Shown one piece after another: positions 12,149 through 43,129 of a DNA stretch of 64,000 nucleotides (position 1 is the stretch's first letter; every line of letters begins with the position of its first letter). The stretch is from Torpedo marmorata (lineage: Eukaryota), in assembly GCA_977017645.1 (NCBI GenBank), contig OZ360245.1, positions 40,486,001-40,550,000 on the forward strand. Reading direction: 5' to 3'. The notes under the pieces were generated by a model. That model did no database searches, was not told the DNA's origin, and saw only the letters and a list, made by a program, of their open reading frames with translations. The position numbers and the translations under genes were made by a program.

Positions 12149-12229
12149 TCAAAATCCAAATATTCCCCCAACCGTGGAGGCGATGACAACCCCCAGCACC
12201 ACACAGCATATAATGATCATAATCTTCTT
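12149..12229 (-). CDS. stx1a: Syntaxin-1A canonical terminal TM exon ('10b'), KKIMIIICCVVLGVVIASTVGGIFGF*
   Basis: Acceptor ctacag|AAG, classic KKIMIIICC transmembrane segment, TGA stop at 12149-12151. Confidence 0.96.
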   Translation of the reverse strand, partial: KKIMIIICCVVLGVVIASTVGGIFGF

Positions 12230-17689: not shown

Positions 17690-18560
17690 GTCCAAAAGTA
17701 TTGTTTATGTGGACCTCCAGGGATGTTTCAGTAAAAGACAGCTAAATTAGAAACTCATGGAATTGAAGGAGAATTTAGCAGTTTAACATACAGACTGAAC
17801 GGCAGCAAACAAGTGGTAGGGTTAAAGGTGGGTATTTCATGTTGGCAGCATGACTAAAATTGGCATTGAGTTTGCAAAGATTTATTGTACTTCGTGACAA
17901 GATACAAAACAACATATTTAATTTGCCTGACATAAGGACATGCAAAACTGGAAGCATTAGAGATGAGAGCCTTAAATTATAAAGAGCTAATGGATTAAGC
18001 AAATGGGCAAAACAGGATTGACAAGACTCGAGAGAATACATACTGGATGTTGTTAAACCAGAAACAGTGGAGATCCAAAGAGGATTGGATAAATCATTAA
18101 AATGTCACGGACGGGTACAGAAAATAATAAGGCAAATGGAGTACTGGCTTTTACATTGAGCGAACTAGAATGAACGGGGGTTCTCAAATGTTAAGATTAG
18201 GGTTAGACCGCGCCTGGAGTACTGGAAGCAGTGCCTTACACAGATAGTTTTGCCTTGGAAAGAGCAGATTTATCACAATAATACCTGAATTCTGATATGA
18301 AAACCGAATCCCAACAATTACATTGCAAATTGAAATTATTCAAATTGCATTTCATACCATTTGGAAAGTCAAAGGGTTACCTGAAGCAAGCTTTCAAAAT
18401 ATTAAAGGGAAAACACACTAAATAAAGCATTCCCACTTATTTTCTTGTTTAGGATGAAATGGCAGAGTCTAAACATTGAAATCGGGAGTGAACCCAGAAA
18501 ACATTTATACTCATAAGTGACAGTAGAAATCTGTAACTGTTAAATTTAGACATGAGGTTG
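17690..18560 (+). mobile_element. Highly degraded CR1-like LINE remnant
   Basis: Residual motifs tttatgtggac, aaatttagaa..catggaattgaagg-like, aatttgcctga, gttagaccgcgcctggagtactg; no intact frame. Confidence 0.55.
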
Positions 18561-19506
18561 TTAGTTTTTGTTTAAAGCAATGGAATCTTCCCATTAGACA
18601 ATCCCCTGGGATTGACAAAGACTTGCCTCCACTCTGGTTCTGAGGTACCTGGTGAGACCAGTGTGGGACCAATAGCCTGCACCAACCATTGGGCAGGAGG
18701 TTGCTGATGGTGTGGATGGGGACGTAGTATGTGAAGCGTTTGGTTCATTCTACTGATTATGCTGGCATCTGCGTGTTGCCATCTCATGATCTGGAGGTTC
18801 CCAGTGCCCTCCTGATGGTGCCTCTTCAACTTTAGCGGTCAGGGGCTAGGAATTCCTAGGAATTGGTGGCATTTTTTTCCCAAGCAGGTGGGTATATGAG
18901 GTAACAGATCTGCCATGTTCTTGCTGAATGCCAGAGCAGGATCGGGGAACTAAATGGGTGTGTTCCATTACCACATTGATCTTGTAAAATTTGCAGAGAG
19001 AAGGGGTCTGAGAGGGGTGGGAAGAGAGATGAAGGTGGAAGGATAGAGAAATGAGTAAAGTAGCAAGATGGGAAGGAAAGAGAAAGGGTTTGGGAAGTCA
19101 TTGATTTAGAAATTATTATAAAAATCTGTTGACTGCAAAACATCACCTGTATTCACAGTGACTTAATGTTGGTAAAATCATGGATCATAGTCTGTTCAGG
19201 TTCAGACTAATAATGTTTCTTAGTATTGAAATACAAGAGTGTGTAGTTTGAGTCCTGATGTCGCTCTTCAGTTTAGAGAGGTGCCAAAGCAAACAAGGTC
19301 CACACTGGAGAGTAGAACTCAAACCGGAATAATGGTCTTGGTGCCTACAAGCAGGCGCTCCTGGAATGTCCTAGTGTTGGCAAAATGAAATGAAAATGTC
19401 CAGCAATGATGAGCTGTCCTTCCTTTTCACACCAGCTTTCATGGAACAAGAGCCCATCTTTAGTCTCAATCAGGATGGTTCGGTGGGATCATGCAACTTT
19501 GTAGCA

Positions 19507-19584
19507 TTAACTGAGAGACACAGCCAAAGCAATGATGATAACCAACAGTACTATTGCAATGCAAATTCCAATAAAGATCATTTT
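19507..19584 (-). CDS. stx1a: Alternative terminal transmembrane exon ('10a'), KMIFIGICIAIVLLVIIIALAVSLS*
   Basis: Strong acceptor ttttcttcccttcctacag|AAA, phase 0 matching both exon 9 versions. It reads Lys plus 24 uncharged, mostly hydrophobic residues then TAA, which is a typical syntaxin tail anchor. Confidence 0.83.
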   Translation of the reverse strand, partial: KMIFIGICIAIVLLVIIIALAVSLS

Positions 19585-19621: not shown

Positions 19622-19627
19622 CATGCA
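19622..19627 (-). promoter_or_regulatory. UGCAUG (RBFOX) motif about 38 nt upstream of the alternative TM exon; a second copy lies at 19490-19495 just after its stop
   Basis: catgca on the + strand at both positions. Upstream or exonic position is the established repressive geometry. Confidence 0.45.
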
Positions 19628-20909: not shown

Positions 20910-23180
20910 AAACGTGCTGGAGAAACTCAGCAGGTCACGTAACATCCATAGGAAGTCAAAGAAAATCAAAATTTCGGGCCTGAGCCTTTCATCAGGAACG
21001 TTTCTGATGAAGATCAGATTTTGAGAGTGCAAAAGCTTTATGTTCCTGTTAGGTTAAAAGGAGGGGCAAAAGGTTTGAGAGAGCCGTGGTTTTCGAGGAA
21101 TATTGGAAACTTGGTTCGAAAAAAAAGGGAGGCATACATTAAGTATAAGAAGTATGGAATTAAGGAGATGTTTGAAAAATACATTGAATGTAAAAGGAAC
21201 CTTAAGAGAGGAATTAGGAAAGCTAAAAGAAGGTACGAGGAGACTATAGCAAGCAGGGAAGCAGGGTGAAAATTAATCCAAAAGGTTTCTACAAATACGT
21301 TAATGGTAAAAGGAAAGCGAGGGACAAAATTGGTCCCTTAGAGAATCAGAGCGGAAAACTGTGTGTGGAGCCTAGAAAAATGGGGGAGATATTGAACAGT
21401 TTCTTTTCTTCAGTATTCACCAAGGAGAAGGATATTGGGATATGTGAGATAAAAAAAAGCAAATTGGGTAAATATGGAGAATATAGTGATTACGAAGGAT
21501 GTAGTGTTAGGGCTTTTGAGGCATATAAAGGTGGATAAGTCTCCGGGACCCGACGGGATCTTCCCCAGGACCTTGAGAGAAGTAAGTGAGGAAATAGCAG
21601 AGGCTCTGACGGTGATTTTCCAAATGTCATTAGAGATGGGGATAGTGCCGGAGGATTGGTGTATTGCGCATGTGGTTCCGTTATTTAAAAAGGGTTCAAG
21701 GAGGAAGCCTGGCAATTATCGGCCTGTAAGTTTGACGTCTGTGGTAGGTAAATTAATGGAGAAAGTTCTTAGAGATAGTACGGTACTTGTAAATATCTGG
21801 ATAGACAGGGTCTGATCAGGAACACTCAACACGGATTTGTGAGCGGAAGGTCCTGTTTGACCAATCTGATTGAATTTTTTGAAGAGGTGACTAGGAATGT
21901 GGATGAGGGTAGCGCGGTGGATGTTGTCTATATGGACTTCAGTAAGGCCTTCGATAAGGTACCACATGGAAGGTTAGTTAGGAAGGTGCAGTCTTTAGGT
22001 ATAAATTTTGAGATAGTCAAATGGATTGAACATTGGCTGAAAGGGAGAGGCCAGAGAGTGGTAGTGGATAATTGTCTGTCAGGTTGGAGGCCGGTGACCA
22101 GCGGTGTGCCTCAGGGATCTGTATTGGGCCCATTGTTGTTCGTTATATACATTAATGATCTCGATGATGGGGTGGTGAACTGGATTAGTAAATATGCAGA
22201 CGATACTAAGATAGGTGGAATAGTGGATAATGATTGCAGAGGGATTTGGGCTGCTTAGAAAAGTGGGCTGAAAAATGGCAAATAGAGTTTAATGCTGATA
22301 AGTGTGAGGTGCTTCATTTTGGTAAGAAGAATCAGAACAGGACATACGTAGTAAATGGGAGAGCATTGATGAATACAGAAGAGCAGAAAGATTTAGGAGT
22401 AACGGTGCATCGTTCCCTGAAGGTAGAAACTCATGTGAATAGGGTGGTGAAGAAGGCTTTTAGTATGCTGGCCTTTATCAATCATTGCATAGAATATAGG
22501 AGTTGGGAAGTGATGTTGAGATTATATAAGGCATTGGTGCGGCCTAATTTAGAGCTCTGTGTGCAGTTCTGGTCGCCAAATTATAGGAAGGATATCAACA
22601 GAGTGGAGAGAGTGCAGAGAAGATTTACCAGAATGTTACCTGGGTTTAAGCATCTAGAGTACAAGGAGAGATTGAGCAGATTAGGTCTTTATTCTTTGGA
22701 GCGTAGAAGGTTGAGAGGGGATTTGATAGAGGTATTTAAGATTATGAAAGGGATAGACAGAGTGGATGTGGATAGACTATTTCCATTAAGAGTAGGAGAG
22801 ATTGAAACAAGAGGACATGAGTTAAGAGTTAAGGGGCAGAGGTTTAGAGGTAACATGAGGGGGAACTTCTTTACTCAGAGAGTGGTAGCGGTGTGGAATG
22901 AGCTTCCGGGAGAAGTAGTGGCGGCAGAGTCAATTTTATTATTTAAGAAAAAGTTGGACAGGTATATGGATGAGAAGGAGGTGGAGGGTTATGGGCAGGG
23001 TGCAGGTAGGTGGGACTAGAGAGGAGTGTTTGGTTCGGTGCGGACTAGAAGGGCCTAATGGCCTGTTTCCGTGCTGTAATTGTTATATGGTTATATAAGG
23101 GCTCAGGCCTTAAATGTTTATTGCATTTTACTTCCTCTGGGTGCTGCGTGACCTGCAGACTTTCTCCAGCACTTCTGTGT
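20910..23180. mobile_element. Palindromic Penelope-end element (arms about 20910-21000 and 21001-21012 plus 23097-23180) split by a CR1 insertion
   Basis: Removing 21013-23099 restores cctgagcctttcatcaggaacgtttctgatgaagggctcagg, and the two arms are reverse complements. Confidence 0.75.
21013..23096 (+). mobile_element. 5'-truncated CR1 LINE, RT and C-terminal region with a few frameshifts
   Basis: ORFs 21021-23019 contain [40 protein letters not shown] and SLERRRLRGD. Tail gttatatggttatat; possible AAG TSD. Confidence 0.96.
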
Positions 23181-25669: not shown

Positions 25670-26710
25670 ATCAATAGGAGCAGGAGTAAGGCCATCTTCC
25701 AGCCTGGTCTGACTATGGACTCAGCTCCACACACCCTCAATTCCCCTGTTATCCAGAAATCTGTCTGTGTTTTAAATACATTTAATGAGACAGCTTTGTT
25801 TTGTTTTGTTAGGCAGAAAAATCCACAGATTCACTAATCTTGGGGAGAAGCAGTTCCTCCTTATCTCTGTCCAAAGTCTACTCATCCAAATATTGAGGCT
25901 ACGACACCTGCCAGTGGAAATGACCTCCCTGCTTTTACTACATCAATTTCTCTTATAATAATATTCCTCCCTCCTCCTTCTAAACTCCACTGAATATAGT
26001 CCCTGGCTGCTCAATCTCTCCTCACAGGCTAACCCCCTCATTTCCACAGTCAACCTGGAAAACCTCCTCTGCTCCACCTCCAAAGTCTGCCTATTCTTTC
26101 TCAAGTAAAGAGTTCAGAACCGCACACGTTATTCCAGATGCAGCCTCACCAGTACCCTGTATAGTTGCAGCAGAAACTCCCCGCTGACAAGTTCAATCTC
26201 TTCAGCAAAGGACAACATCCCAATTACCTTCTTGATTAACTGCTGCATCTGCAAACTAACTTTTCCAAATTCGTGCACAAGCATTCTCAGATCTCCCTGC
26301 ACAACAGCATGGTGCAAACTTTCACTGTTCAAATAATGTACAATTTACTATTTCATTCCAAAGTGGATGACCTCAAATTTACCAGCATTGTCTTCCTGTG
26401 GCCAGACCCTTGCCCACTCACTTAACCTATCTATATCTCTTTACAGACTGTCCCCTCTGCACAATTTACTTTTCCACTCAATGTAGTATAATCAGCAAAC
26501 TTAGATATGCTACACCTCATCCTCCCTCAAAATCATTTATGTATATTGTGAACAGTTACGGGCCCAGCTCTGATCTCTGCATCACCCACTATTCACCAAA
26601 TGCCAACTAGAAAAAACACGCATTTATCCCAATTCTCTGTCTCTATCGGTTAACCAATCCCCGATCCATGCCAATGTATTACCTTCAACTCCCTGTATCT
26701 TTATTTTATG
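25670..26710 (-). mobile_element. Degraded CR1 LINE 3' region
   Basis: Minus-strand remnants LQLYRVLVRLHLE and QGDLRMLVHE, plus agcaaactt (KFA) and a CR1-like terminus near 25680. Confidence 0.75.
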
Positions 26711-29236: not shown

Positions 29237-29978
29237 CAGGATCAATCGATGCATCACATACCCCCTCACATGAACTGTGCATCAGAGTGTGTTATGGTGC
29301 TTTGTTGTGAATAAATAGCTTTACTCAGAAAAGTAAACTTACACCATAATCCAAATTTCATGTGTGTTTGGGATGTCAGATTACTTTCTTTTTATTACTT
29401 ACTTTAGTTTTTAGTTCCACTTTTATAAAAAGATGTTCTGTGTTATTACACTGTGTGGCAAATAATCCTTCCTTAACAATAGTATCAACACTGATGAGAG
29501 GAGAAAATGATAGGATAGACCATAATTTACACCACAATTCTTCCTAAATTACAACCATAGCGAGAGGTATAATCCTGCATGAGGCACTGGATCAAATGCT
29601 CCTGTACATATATTTTTTTAATGTGTGCATCTGGAATTATTTTGGTATTGATTGATAAATACTCACATCTTTTAAACATGTGTATAGCTGTCCAGCAGCA
29701 CAAGGTGATGTATGCTCTTCTGAACTGTTGCTAGCAGGTACATTTCTGTCAAAGACTCACATCCCAAAGCCAATTGCATTGTGTGCAGAGCACAACCATA
29801 TTGCGTACCGGATACATAGCCCTTTACAAATAATGTTACAGCATGGGACGGGAGCTGACCAGCTGATGAATGACTGCTGCAGACAGTCACACAATGAGAT
29901 GAATACAGGATTGAGAAACTTTTCTAATATGGACTCTATTGATGGCATTGGGGAAGCACAATGAGGTCGTCCACACCA

Positions 29979-29984
29979 CATGCA
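29979..29984 (-). promoter_or_regulatory. UGCAUG (RBFOX) motif 25 nt downstream of canonical exon 9
   Basis: catgca on the + strand at 29979-29984. A downstream intronic position is the established enhancer geometry for RBFOX. Confidence 0.5.
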
Positions 29985-30008
29985 GGGCTGGTGACGTGCA
30001 CCACTTAC

Positions 30009-30119
30009 CCGTCGCGCTTTACTCTGGTACTTAACCGCCTTTTTCGTGTCGGACACTGCCCGCTCTACGTAGTCAACGGAATGCTCAACGTTGTATTCGA
30101 TCCTGTCTATCATCTCTCC
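30009..30119 (-). CDS. stx1a: Syntaxin-1A canonical exon 9 ('9b'), [37 protein letters not shown]
   Basis: 111 nt, acceptor tctttcctcgatgccag|GGA and donor CGG|gtaagtg, near-identical to syntaxin-1 residues 227-263. Confidence 0.97.
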
Positions 30120-30194
30120 CTGGCATCGAGGAAAGAGCAGAGACGTGTGAAAATAACAGAGGTGTTTCAGGTGCCGTTACCTCCGGTCACTTAC

Positions 30195-30305
30195 CCGTCT
30201 GCTGGTACTCTGAAAATTAACTGCTTTTTTTGTGCTGTCCTTTGCCTGTCCGATGTAATCAGTTGCATTGACAACATTCCTCTCAATACTGTTGGCCACA
30301 TCACC
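30195..30305 (-). CDS. stx1a: Duplicated alternative exon 9 ('9a'), C-terminal half of the SNARE motif, [37 protein letters not shown]
   Basis: 111 nt (same as canonical exon 9), phase 0/0, strong acceptor ttttccctttgtttcag|GGT and donor CGG|gtaagtg, no stop codon, 17/37 aa identical to the canonical exon with heptad layers kept. Not present in the ORF track. Confidence 0.85.
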
Positions 30306-32126
30306 CTGAAACAAAGGGAAAATTATTCACATTCGTGAAAGGGCCCTGATATTGCAAGGAATGACATGACAAGTGTTACCCTTTCCCTCAACTCACTGGA
30401 CAATACCTATCCCTTCTTGCAGCCCATGTGAAGTCTCAAAGGGGCTCCACATTGGAGGTCTGCAGTGACCTGGACCTGTTGCCAAGAGCAACTCCTTTTG
30501 TCTTGTGGGCCCACCAATGGCTTAACTGAAGAGCAATATAATACAAAAGATTTGTTCACTGACAAATATTGAGGCATTTATTCTCCCTTGTACTTGTTCA
30601 TCAGAACATTTAAGTCCACATAGAAATTTTCTGAAATTACCAATGGTATGGATTCTGTTTTGAATCTGAACAGATAACCTTGTTGTTTACTCAATGGAAC
30701 ATTTTCAGACTTTCCCCTTTGCAGCTCAGGGCTTTAAAATTAGAATGAGTTTCCTCTGAGAATTTCTCTGGAAAACGCGGGTCTCTATAAATATTTCCTG
30801 CCTCACCTTAAACTTCTCAGATGCAAAGTTCATGGAAAGGGAACAAAGACCCGTTTTACTGGGTCTCCAGTGGGTGCCATCCTGAATCGTGTGGGATACG
30901 AATGAAGATTCCAAGCTTCCCACCTTTTCAATTTTCTTCCAGTGATCTAAAACTCTCCCTGGCTGGAGCTGACGCACTTCAAACAGTATTTTTCACCTTG
31001 TCCACTGAGCTCAAGGTGTTGGGCAGAACTGAGGTCTTCCAGCTAATGTTCTCTCCTGAGCTAGAGGATCCTACTCCAGGCTACAGGGCTGAATAATTTC
31101 CCTCCCTGCTGGCTCCAGACTCTGCCAAAGGTTTAGGAAATCTCAGCACCTTGTGTGTGGTTCCTGTTCAGTGTTTGGCATAACCCAGAACAACCCACCA
31201 TGATCTTCTGAGGGTGAGGTGGTGTGGCAGGCTCATTTACCCTCAGTTATGCTGCTTATTTCTTATTCATGCACCAACTAAGATTCTTGCTGACTGGTAG
31301 CTTGATAACAAGGTGCTGCATTGAGATTGTTTTCAAAGCCTTGTCCCTGGGCTCACCGTTGGGTGTGGCACTCTGCCACTCCTTAACAGGCAAGCGAGCA
31401 GGGTGGTACAGGGTACCAATGGGCCAAGATGCCAAGCAAACAATCGTGCAATGCCGCATTGTCAGGTGTGTTACCGCGTTTAAAGCATCCATGATCATGC
31501 ACGTGTTTGGAGGGACATGCAATCATGCAAACTGCACTGTTATCTGCATGCTTCAGACACAGGAATGAATTACCTGCAGGTCTCCGCCATCCAGTCCAGG
31601 GTATTAGCAATGGGAGAAAACAGAGGCTGTTACCGCTATAGGAAGAACAGGGTCACGGTCACAGCCTCGCTGCAAAGTTGCGAATGAAGGCTGTGGAGAT
31701 CTCTATTGCAGCTCTTATTTCCTTTCCTTTAGTTGATTTTGATTCAGTTGCCCATACATCACAGTCCCTTCAGTTCACACATCAGAAACCTGGCTTCCAA
31801 TTTTGGGCCAGAAAGTTGGAGAGTTGGGCAAAAGGTGAGGGGAACGAGGGTGGGAGGGTTGAAGCTGGGAGTGAGAGATGGAATGATCAGTACAAATAAC
31901 TGGGTTGGTTGGGCCAGATCCAGCAGTGTCTGGGGCTGCATTAAGAAAAGGCTTCTGCCTGGGCCGTCCTGCCCTTGGCTCAATGGTATCAGGCTTGGTT
32001 CTGTTAGACATGATAGGGCTTCACTGCTCCTCTGCCACAGCTCCTCCAACGATTTGTCAGAAAGGACAGCATCACAAATCACAGACAAGGGGCGTGGAAA
32101 GAGGCACAACTCTGCTCAGGCTCATA

Positions 32127-32355
32127 GGGCGGCACAGTTAGCGTAGCGGGTAGCACAACACTATTACAGCACCAGCGACCTGGGTTCGAATCCGGCGCAG
32201 TCCGTAAGGAGTTTCTACTTTCTCCTCTTGTCTGCGTGGGTTTCCTCCGGGTGCTCCGGTTTCCTCCCACCCATCTGGAGTTGTAGGTTAATTGGGGTAT
32301 TTGGGTGGCATGGGCTGGAAGGGCCTGTTACTGTGCTGTATGCCTAAGTTTAAAA
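32127..32355 (+). mobile_element. tRNA-derived V-SINE
   Basis: A and B boxes (gggttcgaatcc), V core, tail gaagggcctgttactgtgctgtatgcctaa. Confidence 0.88.
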
Positions 32356-33037
32356 CAACAGTACAAAGTGCATCTTTCCATTGTCCATATTTTAGGAGCT
32401 GGGGAAGTCACTGCAAACTTCTTCGGGAAGCAGATGACATCTATTTGACGGAGAGTTGGCAGAGGCATGATGGAATAACTCATTTGCTTTTCAATCTAGT
32501 GTACTGGATCTGTGGTTACCTGGATTGGAGCACCCAAAATCAAGCATAAAATATTTTTCTTCAACAAATTGGCAAATTCTTTTTCCACTGTGTATAAAGT
32601 CAGGCAGACCAAGTGTCCTGAAGTCTTGTCACCCTCCAGTATCGGTAAAACAAAATCCCAGTTGGACTTGGCATTAGTAGCTTGAGAGGGGATGAGTGGT
32701 CACCAGAGAAGTTGAGCAAGAAGATACAGGGAAGTCTGAAAACTAAACATATGGCCAGTGGGTTCCATATTAGCAAATTATATTGAAGGCTAGGTTCCAT
32801 AGATTTTTGGACCTTAAGTGAATCAAGGATTATGGTGTTTGGGAAAGAGAGTGGATTGCCACGATCCTACTGATAATTGGAACAGACTCAAGGTACTGTA
32901 TGAACTACTGTTGCTTCTTTTATGCTCTTACAGTGAGATTAACCTTTCTATTTAATTTCAACATGTAGAACAAACATGAATACTCGTCACTATGCAATGG
33001 CTTCAAAAACAGTGTAAAGTGACAATTCCTTCCCACA

Positions 33038-34212
33038 CATAGAACCACAGAACATTACAGCACAGAAACAGGCCCTTCGGCTCTTCTAGTCTGTGCCGAA
33101 CTATTTTTCTGCCTAGTCCCATGACCAGCACCCAGTCCATCGCCCTACAAACCCCTCCCATCCAGGCACCTGTCCAAATTCTTAAATGTTAAAATCGAGC
33201 ATGCATTCACCACTTCAGCTGGCAGTTCCACACCCCCACCACTTGCTGTGTGAAGAAGTTCCCCCTATTGTTCCCCTCAAAACTTTTCCCCTTTCACCCT
33301 TACCCCATGTCCTATGGTTTGTATCTCACCTACCCTCAGTCGAAAAAGCCTACGTATATTTACTCTGTCTATATCATAATTTAAAAAACCTCTATCAAAT
33401 CTCACCTCATTCTTCTACGCTCCAGGGAAAAAAGTCCCTCCTGTTTAACCTTTCCCTGTAACTCAGTTCCCGAAGTCCGGGCAACATTCCTAGTAAATCT
33501 TCTCTGCACTCTTTCAATCTTATTGATATCTTTCCTGTAGTTAGGTGACCAAAACTGCACACAATACTCCAGATTTGGCCTCACCAATGTCTTATACAAC
33601 TTCACCATAACATCCCAACTATACTCAATACTTCGATTTATGAAGGCCAATATGCCAAAAGCTCTATTTACAACCCTATCTATCTGTGACACCACTTTCA
33701 GGGAACTATGTATCTGTATTCCCAGATCCCTCTGTTCTGCCGCACTCCTCAGTGCCCTACCATTTATCATGCATGTACTTTCTTGGTTTGTCCTTCCAAA
33801 ATGCAACATCTCACACTTGTCTGCATTAAATTCCATCTGCCATTTTTCAGCCCATTTTTTCAGCTGGTTCAGATCCCTCTGCAAGATTTGAAAACCTTCC
33901 TCACTGTCCACAATACCTCCAATCTTTGTGTCATCTGCAAACTTGCTGATCCAATTTACCACATTATCATCCAGATCATTGATATAGATGACAAACAACA
34001 ATGGTCCCAGCACTGAACCCTGAGGCACACCACTAGTCGCAGGCCTCCAGTCTGAGAAGCAATCATCCACCACTACTCTCTGGGTTCTCCCGCATCGCCA
34101 ATGTCGAATCCAGTTTCCTACCTCACAATGAACACTGAGCATCAGAACCTTCCTGACTAACCTCCCATGTGGGACCTTGTCAAAGGCCTTACTAAAGTCC
34201 ATTTAGACAACA
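33038..34212 (-). mobile_element. 5'-truncated CR1 LINE
   Basis: ORF 33402-34202 has [19 protein letters not shown] and FADD; the 3' terminus is retained. Same family as 40108-42570. Confidence 0.95.
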
Positions 34213-34397
34213 TGTGGATATTCACCCTGAAAAGATCTTGTCTGATCAAAGATTTAATGCCATTAACATGGAACTGTACAGTTTGTTTTAATTCCGTCCC
34301 GTTATTGACCAACCTGGACCTTTTCACTATTTACATAGCAGGTAGTATCTGTTGCACAGATTCAAGGTGAGATGTTTTTGTTTAAACCTCATCTTAC

Positions 34398-34535
34398 CTG
34401 GCTTTCCACCAGCATTGCCATGTCCATGAACATGTCGTGCAGCTCACGGATACAGTTCTCCAGTTTGATGATCTCATGGTGTCGTGTTTCAATCTCATTA
34501 AGAGCCTGCTTCGTAATGTTGGAATCCATTATGAT
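34398..34535 (-). CDS. stx1a: Syntaxin-1A exon 8, N-terminal half of the Qa-SNARE motif, [46 protein letters not shown]
   Basis: 138 nt, acceptor tctctcccttcag|ATC and donor CAG|gtaag, ending on the zero-layer Gln. IIMDS and MFMDMA favour STX1A over STX1B (IKMDS/MFVDMA, recalled). Confidence 0.96.
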
Positions 34536-38670: not shown

Positions 38671-40010
38671 TCAGATTTCAGATTTATTGTCAAGAGTACA
38701 TACATGACGTCACATACAACCCTGAGATTCTTTTTCCTGCGGGCGCAGCAGAATTAGCACTTATTGGTAGTGCAAAAAGTAAACTGTACACAGCGTAAAC
38801 ATGTAAACAATCAAAAGAACTGCTAACAGGTAACGAATGAAATTGAAAATGAATCTGACTGTGCAATACAGAGAGAGCAAAGAAAAATCAATAAAGTGCA
38901 CAAGAGTCCTTAAATGAGTCTCTGATTTGACTTTGTCGTTGAGGATTCTGATGGTAGATGGGTAGCAGCTGTTCCTAAACCTGGTGGTGCGAGTCTTGTG
39001 GCACCTATACCTCTCTCCTGATGGCAGCAGCGAGAACAGAGCGTGTGCTGGGTGGTGTGGGTCTTTGATGATTGCTGCTGCCCTCCGACAGCAGCGTTCC
39101 CTGTAGATGTACTCAATAGTGGGGAGGGTTTTGCCAGTAATGTCCTGGGCTGTGTCCACTACCTTTTGGAGGGCTTTACGCTCAGGGGTATTGGTGTTCC
39201 CATACCAGACCGTGATGCAGTCGGTCAGCACACTTTCCACCACACATCTATAGAAATTTGCCAGGGTTTCTGATGTCATACCAAACCTCTGCAAACTCCT
39301 GAGGAAGTAAAGGCGCTGATGTGCTTTCTTCACGATGCCATTGGTGTGTTGGGTCCAGGAAAGATCCTCCGAGATAGTGACTCCCAAGAACTTAAATTTC
39401 CTCACCCTCTCCACCTCTGATCCCCCAATGATCACTGGATTGTATACCTCTGGCTTTCCTTTCCTGAAGTCAACAATCAGCTCCTTAGTTTTGGTGACAT
39501 TGAGTGCAAGGTTGTTTTTGGTGCACCATTCAGCCAGGTTTTCAATCTCCATCCTGTATGCTGACTCATCCCCTTCCTTTATACAACCCACTACCGTGGT
39601 ATCGTCGACAAATTTGTAGATGGTGTTATTGTCATACCGAGCTACACAGTCGTAGGTGTAAAGTGAGTAGAGCAGGGGGCTAAGAACACAGCCCTGTGGT
39701 GTTCCTGTACTGATGGAGATTGTGGAGGAGAAGTTCTTACCAATCTTCACTGATTGTGGTCTGGAAGTGAGGAAATCCATGATTCAATTACACAGTGGGG
39801 TGTTAACTCCCAGGTCTTGGAGTTTGCTGATCAGTTTTGAGGGGATGATGGTGTTAAATGCCGAACTGTAGTCGATAAAGAGCATCCTGATGTATACATC
39901 TTTACTGTCCAGGTGTTCCATGGCTTTGTGTAGGGCCAGTGAGATGGCATCCGCCGTAGACCTGTTGCCGCGATAGGCGAACTGGAATGGATCCATGTCA
40001 CCGCTCAGAC
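38671..40010 (-). mobile_element. 5'-truncated Rex1/Babar-like LINE (RT plus C-terminal domain)
   Basis: [60 protein letters not shown]. One in-frame stop at 39784-39786. Tail tgacaataaatctgaaatctga. Confidence 0.92.
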
Positions 40011-40107
40011 AGGGTTAGGAAAATTAATCTTGGTAGGGATGTAATTGTTGGGAATAATGCACTTCTTTTCATACCTAGTGTCAGTATTGAGCAGACTATT
40101 AAATAAA

Positions 40108-42570
40108 AACCATAGAAAACTACAGCACAAAAAGCAGGCCATTCGGCCCTTCTAGTCTGTGCTGAAACATCATTTCGCTAGTCCCACTGACCTGCACCCA
40201 TTCCATAACCCTCCAGACCACTCCCATCCATGTATCTATCCAATTTATTCTTAAAACCTAAGAGTGAGCCCACATTTACCATGTCAGATGGCAGCTCGTT
40301 CCAAACTCCCACCACTCTCTGAGTGAAGAAATTCCATCTAATGTTCCCCCTAAACCTTTCACCTTTCACCCTAAAGCCATGTCCTCTCGTATTTATCTCT
40401 CCCAATCTAAGTGGAAAGAGCCTACTCGCATTTACTCTGTCTATTCCCCTCATAATTTTGTAAACCTCTATCAAATCTCCCCTCATTCGTCTACGCTCTA
40501 AGGAATAAAGTCCCAACCTGTTTAAATCTTTCCCTGTAACTCAACTCCTGAATACCCGGCAACATCCTAGTAAATCTTCTCTGCATTCTTTCGATCTTAC
40601 TGATATCCTTCCTGTAGTTTGGCGACCAGAAATGCACTCAATACTCCAAATTTGGCCTCACCAATGTCTTATACAACCTCACCATAACATCCCAACTCCA
40701 GTACTCAATACTTTGATTTATGAAGGCCAAGATGCCAAATGCTTTCTTTACAACCCTGTCTACATGTGACGCCACTTTCAGGGAATTATGTATCTGTATT
40801 CCCAGATCCCTTTGTTCCTCCGCACTCCTCAGTGCCCTACCATTTACCGTGTATGTCCTACCTTGGTTTGTCCTTCCAAAATGCAACACCTCACACTTGT
40901 CTGCATTAAATTCCATCTACCATTTTCTGGCCCATTTTTCCAGTTGGTCAAGATCTCTCTGCAAGCTTTGAAAGCCTTCCTTGCTGTCCACCACGCCTCC
41001 AATCTTAGTGTCATCAGCAAACTTGCTGATCCAATTTCCCACATTATCATCCAGATCATTGATATAGACAACAAACAAAAATGGTCCCAGCACCGATCCC
41101 TTAGGCACACCACTAATCACAGGCCTCCAGTCTGAGAAGCAATCATCCACTACCACTCTCTGTCTTCTCCCATTCAGCCAATTTCAAATCCATTTTACAA
41201 CCTCTCCATGGATACCTAATGTCTGAACCTTCTGAACTAACCTCCCATGTGGGACCTTGTCAAAGGCCTTACTAAAGTCCACGTAGACAACATCCACTTT
41301 CATCTACTTTCTTGGTAACCTCCTCAAAAAACTCTATAAGATTCGTTAAACACGACCTACCACGCACAAAGCCATGCTGACTATCCTTAATCAGCCCTTG
41401 GCTGTCCAAATACTTGTATATCCTATCTCTCTGAACACCCTCCAATAATTTACCCACTACTGACGTCAGGCTCACCGGCCTGTAATTTCCTGGTTTACTT
41501 TTGGAGCCTTTTTTAAACAACGGAACAACATGAGCTACATTCCAATCCTCCGGCATCTCACCCGTGGCTAAGGACGTTTAAAATATTTCTGCCAGGGCCC
41601 CTGCAATTTCTTCACTAGTCTCCCTCAAGGTCCGAGGGACTATCATGTCAGGCCCGGGGGATTTATCTACCTTTATTCGCTGTAAGGCAGCAAGTTCCTC
41701 CTCCTCTTAAATCTCTATATGTTCCATGCCACTACTGCTTGTTTCCCTTCCTTCCTTATACACTATGCCAGTTTCCTGAGTAAATACTGATGCAAAAAAA
41801 CTGTTTAGTATCTCCCCCATCTCGTTAGACTCCACACATAGACGACCACTCTGATCTTCTGGGTCCCTTACTATCCTTTTACTCTTAACATACTTGTAGA
41901 AACCCTTCAGGTTTACCTTCACATTATCTGCCAAAGCAACCTCGTGTCTTCTTTTTGCCTTCCTGATTTCCTTCTTAAGTATTTTCTTACATTTTCTATA
42001 CTCTTCTAGTTCCTCATTTGCTCCTTGTTGCCTATACCTGCTATACACCTCTCTCTTCCTCTTTACCAGATTGCTAATATCCCTTGAAAACCAAGGTTCC
42101 CTATGCCTATTAACTTTGCCTTTAATCCTGACAGGAACATGCAAACTCTGCACTCTAAAAATTTCTCCTTTGAAGGCTTTCTACTTACTGAACACATCCT
42201 TGCCAGAAAACAACTTATCCCAATCCACTCTTCCTAGATCCTTTCTCATTTCCACAAAATTGGCCTTTCTCCAATTTAGAATCTCAACTCGAGGACCAGA
42301 CCTATCCTTATCCATAATTAACTTGAAACTAATGACATTATGGACACTGGACCCAAAATGTCCGCCTACACATACTTCTGTTAACTGACCTGTCTGGTTC
42401 CCTAATAGGAGATCAAGTATTGCATCCTCTCTCATTGGTACCTTTATATATTGATTTTAAAAACTTTCCTGAACACATTTGACAAACTCCAAGCCATCCA
42501 GCCCTTTTACAGTATGGGAGTCCCAGTCAATATGTGGAAAGTTAAAATCTCCTACTATCACAACTTTCTG
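40108..42570 (-). mobile_element. 5'-truncated CR1 LINE (end of APE endonuclease through RT and 3' tail), disrupted
   Basis: ILDLLLGN..GSSVHNVI, NYRPVSLTS, GVPKGSVLGP, FADD, SLERRRMRGD; several stops and frameshifts. Confidence 0.96.
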
Positions 42571-43055: not shown

Positions 43056-43129
43056 CCCAGATGTGAAGATAGCAGGATTCCCACTCTCCAGCATGTCTTC
43101 CAGCTCTTCATTTGTGGTCGTTCTTCCAG
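43056..43129 (-). CDS. stx1a: Syntaxin-1A internal exon (equivalent to mammalian exon 7), (T)GRTTTNEELEDMLESGNPAIFTSG
   Basis: 74-nt exon, acceptor ttgattccag|CT and donor GGG|gtgag. The translation matches the syntaxin-1 linker including the LE motif (ELEDMLE), and ESGNPAIF is 1A-like. Confidence 0.95.

What the first reader, a model, noticed from the sequence alone, without database searches (positions are those of the whole stretch)
30009..30305. Tandem-duplicated, probably mutually exclusive exon 9 in stx1a gives two alternative SNARE C-terminal halves
Seen: 75 nt upstream of canonical exon 9 lies a second 111-nt, phase-0 exon with a strong polypyrimidine acceptor and the same gacgg|gtaagtg donor, encoding [37 protein letters not shown]. 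Identity to the canonical exon is only 17/37, yet length, frame and core layers are kept (I233, V237, A240, I244, A247, T251, A254 in STX1A numbering; +1 becomes Ala). That pattern suggests old purifying selection rather than a decaying copy. Established: exon 8 ends at zero-layer Q226, so this exon encodes layers +1 to +8 and the juxtamembrane linker. STX3A/3B swap this same region by splicing, and I know of no such switch described for mammalian STX1A. Inference: one gene makes two Qa-SNAREs with different zippering properties.
Basis: partly seen in the sequence, partly recalled or inferred. Interest (0 to 1): 0.92.

Follow-up and report, generated by a model that had tools for sequence, protein, structure and literature searches.

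The report
Ancient two-way syntaxin-1A tail switch
The gene for the nerve-cell fusion protein syntaxin-1A in this cartilaginous fish keeps two old alternative versions of its working end, one nerve-type and one resembling the general-purpose syntaxin-2, an arrangement known from syntaxin-3 and already present in automatic annotations of many fishes.

Summary
In detail: exon 9A (30195-30305) is an intact 111-nt, phase-0 homologue of canonical exon 9B, 75 nt upstream of it. The order 9A-9B-10A-10B is that of human STX3. 9A orthologues occur in stx1a gene models of sharks, rays, sturgeons, coelacanth and many teleosts, and in two short assembled contigs, but in 0 of 55 tetrapod STX1A entries listed. 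Trees group 9A with STX2, STX3A and hagfish STX4, and reject a stx1a-only duplication (p-AU 7e-5). Best reading: an ancestral A/B cassette kept whole by fish stx1a and by STX3, reduced to A-type exon 9 in STX2 and B-type in STX1B, and probably lost from tetrapod STX1A. The 9A product resembles the engineered STX1A-2(Cter) chimera, which unclamps spontaneous release in mouse neurons. Inferred, not shown: splicing in this species, mostly exclusive use, and an Rbfox-driven neuronal choice of 9B+10B. It is a new member of a known kind and already auto-annotated; my ten paper searches found no study of it.

The parts
43056..43129 (-). stx1a exon 7 (linker before the SNARE motif)
34398..34535 (-). 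[quoted passage not shown]
30195..30305 (-). [quoted passage not shown]
30120..30194 (-). 75-nt intron between 9A and 9B; best branch-point-like site has its A 47 nt after the donor and 29 nt before the acceptor; in-frame stop at codon 6 if retained
   Evidence: branch point inferred from consensus only
30009..30119 (-). exon 9B: canonical STX1-type exon 9
29979..29984 (-). TGCATG (Rbfox motif) about 25 nt downstream of the 9B donor; candidate enhancer of 9B
   Evidence: function inferred
19622..19627 (-). TGCATG about 40 nt upstream of the 10A acceptor; candidate silencer of 10A
   Evidence: function inferred
19507..19584 (-). exon 10A coding part: alternative STX2-like transmembrane anchor (25 aa + stop), strong acceptor (17 of 20 pyrimidines)
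   Evidence: (92% to the Narcine isoform)
17881..17886 (-). first AATAAA after exon 10A (candidate poly(A) signal)
   Evidence: use not shown
12149..12229 (-). exon 10B coding part: canonical STX1A transmembrane anchor (26 aa + stop), weak acceptor (10 of 20 pyrimidines) with a tandem AG at 12226

Best explanation
The window holds the 3' half of an elasmobranch stx1a gene with a four-exon cassette, 9A-9B-10A-10B, inherited from the ancestor of STX1A, STX1B, STX2 and STX3. A transcript normally takes one exon 9 and one terminal exon 10. 9B+10B gives canonical neuronal syntaxin-1A; 9A+10A gives a protein with the STX1A Habc domain and N-terminal SNARE half but an STX2-like C-terminal half, a less basic linker and an STX2-like anchor: a fusion-competent, weakly clamped Qa-SNARE, most likely for non-neuronal or constitutive secretion. 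SHOWN here: the anatomy, conservation across jawed fishes, the A/B grouping across paralogues, identical exon order with human STX3. INFERRED: splicing in this species (about 0.93, from orthologue models and two assembled contigs of other fish); mostly exclusive use, helped by the short donor-to-branch distance (0.75); 9A enriched outside neurons (0.6, by analogy with STX3A); Rbfox selecting 9B and silencing 10A (0.45); loss of 9A in tetrapods (0.7).
For: Narcine RefSeq isoforms X1/X4 read exon 8-9A-10A. Stegostoma X1 and X2 differ only in exon 9. Of 133 STX1A proteins classified (146 examined, 13 set aside as other genes or fragments), 46 use 9A alone, 69 use 9B, 10 carry both, 5 a third cyprinid variant, 3 other. 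Two Logan proteins, P0032 and P0034, carry exon 8-9A-10A on contigs of 1,199 and 1,604 nt, which fits spliced transcripts of another fish. Of 294 fetched proteins sorted by motif, STX1B-type ones with an exon 9 are B in 31 of 31, STX2-type are A in 18 of 18, STX3-type are 10 A, 8 B, 1 both. Tree of exon 9+10 slices: A types form one side of a branch at 96/95; a stx1a-only clade is rejected, p-AU 6.7e-5, and 1.5e-4 on exon 9 alone. 9A is 59% identical to this genome's stx2 exon 9 against 46% to its own 9B. Human STX3 has 9A, 9B (119 nt apart), 10A, 10B in this order (supplement of PMC8373072). Layer columns vary less than other columns across 43 distinct 9A sequences (entropy 0.56 vs 1.21, permutation p 0.02). 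At the six surface positions mutated in PMC10957171, 9A has the tested STX2 residue at four (231, 235, 238, 248) and differs from STX1A in the same direction at the other two. TGCATG lies downstream of 9B and upstream of 10A; 3.4% of 60-nt intronic windows hold one, and 4 of 5 STX1A-type read-through models past the 9B donor with an intron-type tail show an in-frame Cys-Met compatible with the motif.
Against: Gene models are predictions, and their read support was not seen. Exclusion is not enforced by frame (both exons 111 nt), and 10 models include both exons, 2 of them RefSeq isoforms (sturgeon P0023, arapaima P0019). Coupling to 10A is loose: 9B+10A occurs in 8 models and 9A+10B in 2. Six shark 9A models end without an anchor. 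9A evolves much faster than 9B (elasmobranch stem 0.39), the catshark copy lacks the terminal basic residues, and this species has Ala at layer +1. The trees have only 37-62 columns; A rows are all longer than B rows, so attraction or convergence could contribute, and exon 9 alone gives 93/83, unstarred. No unusual structure around the pair (z 0.28). The Rbfox pattern was noticed after looking; Cys-Met is only indirect. Tetrapod absence rests on 120 of 1,473 hits (54 birds, 1 frog) and on clusters that can hide isoforms (cluster 8 mixes A and B).
Confidence: 0.72

Rival explanations
1. 9A is a neuronal or neuroendocrine tuning exon: some fish neurons, sensory cells or developmental stages use it to lower the clamp on spontaneous release and shrink the primed pool, as SNAP-25a/b tune release.
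For: The STX1A-2(Cter) chimera supports evoked release with a smaller pool, about threefold higher mini frequency and 42% higher release probability (PMC10957171 section 7). Mixed 9A+10B models exist (2). The gene is stx1a, with Habc and exon 8 unchanged.
Against: In STX3 the A form is the non-neuronal one (PMC11476516, PMC8263458). Rbfox motif placement favours 9B and 10B where Rbfox is present. 9A pairs mostly with 10A (33 of 46 models).
Confidence: 0.15
2. 9A is spliced but in elasmobranchs mainly yields anchorless or degraded products (read-through into the 75-nt intron, or a downstream acceptor in the 10A 3' region), a soluble or regulatory form like STX3S.
For: Six shark 9A models lack an anchor; four end a few residues into the intron, and the retained intron has a stop at codon 6 here. 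The Stegostoma alternative tail maps to 19197-19416 of this window.
Against: Those six come from one cluster, a biased sample. Narcine and 33 models overall join 9A to an intact 10A; 10A is 92% identical between this species and Narcine; the 9A donor is a full consensus.
Confidence: 0.07
3. 9A arose by a local duplication in stx1a, or by conversion from stx2, and only converged on STX2; or it is a decaying relic in this lineage.
For: Fast rate, catshark tail change, Ala at +1; short alignments. At third codon positions 9A matches 9B at 17 of 37 and stx2 at 13 of 37.
Against: AU tests; same four-exon order in human STX3; 29-33 of 37 identity between this species and six other sharks and rays with frame intact; low third-position identity argues against recent conversion.
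Confidence: 0.06

Closest known systems
STX3A/STX3B (exons 9A/9B and 10A/10B of STX3; PMC11476516, PMC8263458, PMC8373072)
   Same: Same break at the zero-layer Gln, two 111-nt exons 9 close together, two terminal anchor exons, same order, A type with A type and B with B in trees.
   Different: Different paralogue; 75-nt instead of 119-nt intron; here B is the canonical, near-invariant STX1 exon; tissue pattern untested; annotated coupling of 9 and 10 looser.
Automatically annotated syntaxin-1A isoforms of fishes (e.g. XP_069766522.1 Narcine, XP_048413012.1 Stegostoma, XP_005986912.1 Latimeria)
   Same: Direct orthologues of 9A, and of 10A in Narcine and Latimeria.
   Different: Predictions without a study that my searches could find.
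STX2 and the engineered STX1A-2(Cter) chimera (PMC10957171)
   Same: STX1A backbone with an STX2-type C-terminal SNARE half; same surface residues at four of six tested positions.
   Different: The chimera swaps Q226-255 only; the natural form also changes the linker and usually the anchor, and is 22 of 37 identical to a mammal-like STX2 exon 9.
STX2 and C. elegans unc-64 alternative anchor exons (PMC8373072, PMC4946901); SNAP-25a/b (PMC2581893)
   Same: Tandem homologous exons giving alternative SNARE isoforms, with neuron-biased choice in unc-64.
   Different: STX2 and unc-64 swap the anchor only; SNAP-25 swaps exon 5 of a different SNARE class.

Membership tests
STX1A orthologue | Exons 7-8, 9B and 10B match STX1A rather than STX1B/2/3 | tested here: met
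   Exon 8 identical to annotated shark and ray STX1A, 9B 37/37 to bird STX1A; separate stx2 locus on C11
STX3A/B-type cassette | Two homologous 111-nt phase-0 exons starting after the zero-layer Gln | tested here: met
STX3A/B-type cassette | Two alternative terminal anchor exons, order 9A-9B-10A-10B | tested here: met
   against human coordinates
STX3A/B-type cassette | A exons homologous to STX3A, B exons to STX3B | tested here: met
   short alignments, long-branch caveat
STX3A/B-type cassette | B in neurons, A in other tissues; 9A coupled to 10A | not testable with these tools
   Only gene-model combinations were available, which show all four pairings
Mutually exclusive tandem exons | Homologous, same length and phase, adjacent | tested here: met
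Mutually exclusive tandem exons | Exactly one included per transcript | tested here: inconclusive
   46 models with 9A alone and 69 with 9B, but 10 with both, 2 of them RefSeq isoforms
Mutually exclusive tandem exons | An enforcing mechanism (steric, frame/NMD, U2/U12, RNA pairing) | tested here: inconclusive
   Frame/NMD excluded (both 111 nt); both donors GT U2-type; no pairing seen; candidate branch A at +47 fits steric hindrance (the ~50-nt threshold is recalled)
Qa-SNARE C-terminal half | Hydrophobic layers +1 to +8 kept | tested here: met
   Pfam PF05739 E 6.4e-6, 0.3 bits under the cut-off for the isolated exon
Qa-SNARE C-terminal half | Forms a SNARE complex and drives fusion | not tested
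   No complex prediction or experiment run

The most novel reading that the evidence does not exclude
Jawed fishes switch, by splicing one synaptic gene, between a clamped and an unclamped syntaxin-1A inside neurons or sensory cells; STX1B and STX2 are the two frozen halves of this ancestral switch, and tetrapod STX1A lost it. The fish isoform would then be the natural form of the STX1A-2(Cter) chimera, testable in zebrafish-type models.
Probability: 0.22. Interest if true: 0.75.

Novelty: new member of a known kind. Interest (0 to 1): 0.45.

Why it matters
It recasts the neuronal versus general plasma-membrane syntaxin split (STX1 vs STX2/3A/4) as an exon choice older than the paralogues, later divided among them. 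It supplies dozens of natural STX1A variants whose C-terminal SNARE half differs at the residues shown to control clamping and priming, so that question can be tested in vivo in fish by isoform-specific knockout. It also warns that fish stx1a is not one protein. The kind of event is known from STX3 and the isoforms are already in automatic annotation, which caps the surprise.

Tried and rejected
RNA runs: no RNA holder listed for the 9A exon (8 sampled words); none was listed, so no reads were laid. dN/dS was not computed because no orthologous DNA was obtained. Docking/selector RNA pairing: only short chance-level repeats in 29400-33000, fold z 0.28; no Rfam match in 12000-44000. A second exon 9 in this genome's stx2: none in 40 kb scanned, one anchor exon found. 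stx1b and stx3 were not found in this assembly; these searches score only the best candidates, so this does not show absence. A third exon 9 or third anchor exon in the window: none by tblastn with 11 queries or hydrophobicity scan (one weak hit at 25695 with a poor acceptor was dropped). Homology of the mammalian STX1C-like tail (P0160) to the window: no hit better than E 0.2. Literature: searches found no paper on a duplicated exon 9 in fish stx1a; the supplement of PMC8373072 has 0 occurrences of STX1A (a human catalogue); PMC9741552 main text has none of STX; supplements of PMC4494069 and PMC4417111 had none, but file 1 of each was not searchable. A SNARE-evolution paper recalled from memory (Kloepper et al. 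2008) is not held and may cover this; most subscription journals were not searched. Earlier scan notes held nothing on this locus. Structure and complex predictions were not run, since likeness to solved SNARE complexes would decide them.

Full report
Observation. On the minus strand, 30195-30305 is a 111-nt, stop-free, phase-0 exon candidate (9A) with an AG acceptor and an ACGG|gtaagtg donor, 75 nt upstream of canonical exon 9 (9B, 30009-30119). The two are 17/37 identical. Exon 8 (34398-34535) ends on the zero-layer Gln.

A scan for hydrophobic terminal exons found two: 10A at 19507-19584, with a strong acceptor, and canonical 10B at 12149-12229, with a weak one. The gene therefore ends 8-9A-9B-10A-10B. 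The supplementary table of PMC8373072 (rows seen) gives human STX3 exons 9A, 9B, 10A, 10B in the same order, both exons 9 being 111 nt and 119 nt apart.

Conservation. The 9A peptide retrieved a RefSeq model from the ray Narcine bancroftii that reads exon 8-9A-10A. Further searches gave 9A in models from Carcharodon, Cetorhinus, two Chiloscyllium, Stegostoma and Scyliorhinus, and from sturgeons, coelacanth and many teleosts. Identity to the window's 9A is 26-33 of 37 in elasmobranchs, 23 in coelacanth and 18 in sturgeon. Of 146 proteins examined, 133 were STX1A: 46 with 9A alone (33 scored as followed by 10A, 2 by 10B, 11 other), 69 with 9B (59 10B, 8 10A, 2 other), 10 with both, 5 with a third cyprinid variant, 3 other (regex classes, a few misassigned, e.g. 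P0288 is 9A+10A). Two Logan proteins encode exon 8-9A-10A on 1.2 and 1.6 kb contigs, most simply spliced transcripts of another fish. All 55 tetrapod STX1A entries listed (54 birds, 1 frog) use 9B+10B; only 120 of 1,473 hits were listed and clusters can hide isoforms, so tetrapod loss is likely but not shown. The window is from an elasmobranch, probably a ray, judged by these identities.

Origin. 9A is closer to this genome's stx2 exon 9 (59%) than to 9B (46%). In a 62-column tree of 36 natural exon 9+10 slices, stx1a-A, STX2, STX3A and hagfish STX4 lie on one side of a 96/95 branch, and stx1a-B, STX1B and STX3B on the other with invertebrate rows; forcing stx1a A and B together is rejected (p-AU 6.7e-5). 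Exon 9 alone, with the window's exons, gives 93/83 and p-AU 1.5e-4. Rows were hand-picked from the fetched proteins, many paralogue labels are mine from motifs, and A rows are long, so this is good but not final. Across 294 proteins, STX1B types carry only B (31 of 31 with an exon 9), STX2 types only A (18 of 18), STX3 types both. PMC8373072 (passages) dates the STX2 and STX3 tandem-exon events to Bilateria; in my trees invertebrate rows did not join the A group, so the date of the A/B split is open.

How it probably works. Exon choice: both exons keep frame, so NMD cannot enforce exclusion; the 75-nt intron has a branch-like A 47 nt from the 9A donor, which fits steric interference (mechanism described in PMC4165533, passages; the threshold of about 50 nt is recalled). 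Ten models with both exons, eight of them submitter predictions, leave leakage open. TGCATG sits just downstream of 9B and just upstream of 10A; by the position rule quoted in PMC5840707 (passages) Rbfox would promote 9B and silence 10A, giving 9B+10B where Rbfox is expressed and 9A+10A by default. This is inference from motifs seen after the fact. Protein: the layers are kept, while surface positions 231, 232, 235, 248 and 249 carry STX2-like residues in most of 43 distinct 9A sequences (Asn231 in 40, no Arg232, no Tyr235, Lys248 in 39, acidic 249 in 40; the set includes three hybrid models). PMC10957171 (abstract, passages and section 7) shows that placing the STX2 C-terminal half in STX1A cuts the primed pool from 0.5 to 0.2 nC and raises the spontaneous release rate eightfold. 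The linker also changes: three basic residues in the Narcine isoform against five in STX1A, a region where one charge matters (PMC11476516, passages). So the likely difference is regulation and targeting, not the core zipper. By analogy with STX3A (PMC8263458, passages) the A form is probably non-neuronal; that was not tested.

Against. No transcript of this species was examined. 9A evolves fast, six shark models lack an anchor, the catshark copy has lost its basic end, and layer +1 Ala is unique to this species.

Comparison and novelty. It works like, and by anatomy and ancestry belongs to, the STX3A/B cassette; tissue pattern and strict exclusion are untested. Related cases: STX2 and unc-64 anchor exons (PMC4946901, passages) and SNAP-25a/b (PMC2581893, passages). 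PMC11119284 (passages) describes STX3 isoforms and no such STX1A form in the passages shown. Ten searches found no study of fish stx1a 9A; the library lacks most subscription journals, and two supplement files could not be searched. Verdict: real, old, already auto-annotated, apparently unstudied; a new member of a known kind, interest 0.45.

Noticed in passing
window 31496-31635, minus strand (intron 8): Four GCATG motifs within 51 nt (uniform-placement p 0.00035) in single-copy sequence, directly after a possible 62-nt exon (31574-31635, AG...GT) whose second codon in phase 0 is a stop: a candidate Rbfox-regulated poison exon or a distal regulator of 9A/9B.
   Followed up: partly
window 19197-19416, minus strand: The 3' region after exon 10A is conserved with the alternative anchorless tail of Stegostoma STX1A models X1/X2 (tblastn E 1.4e-6), recalling soluble STX3S made through exon 11A.
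   Followed up: partly
P0055, P0060, P0066, P0068, P0079: Cyprinid stx1a models carry a third, B-derived exon 9 variant joined to 10A.
   Followed up: no
P0025, P0050, P0064: Eel and mormyrid models join the start of 9A to the end of 9B within one 37-residue unit; artefact or internal splice sites.
   Followed up: no
P0173, P0195, P0203, P0206, P0215: Invertebrate-type syntaxin-1 models also show two or more exon-9 units, of B-like type; relation to the vertebrate A/B pair unresolved.
   Followed up: partly
window 12226-12229: Tandem AG acceptor at exon 10B could drop one lysine from the polybasic linker.
   Followed up: no
   Followed up: partly
window 21227-23096, 33039-34213, 38764-42456: Fragments of LINE-type reverse-transcriptase elements in the introns (family assignment from recall).
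   Followed up: no
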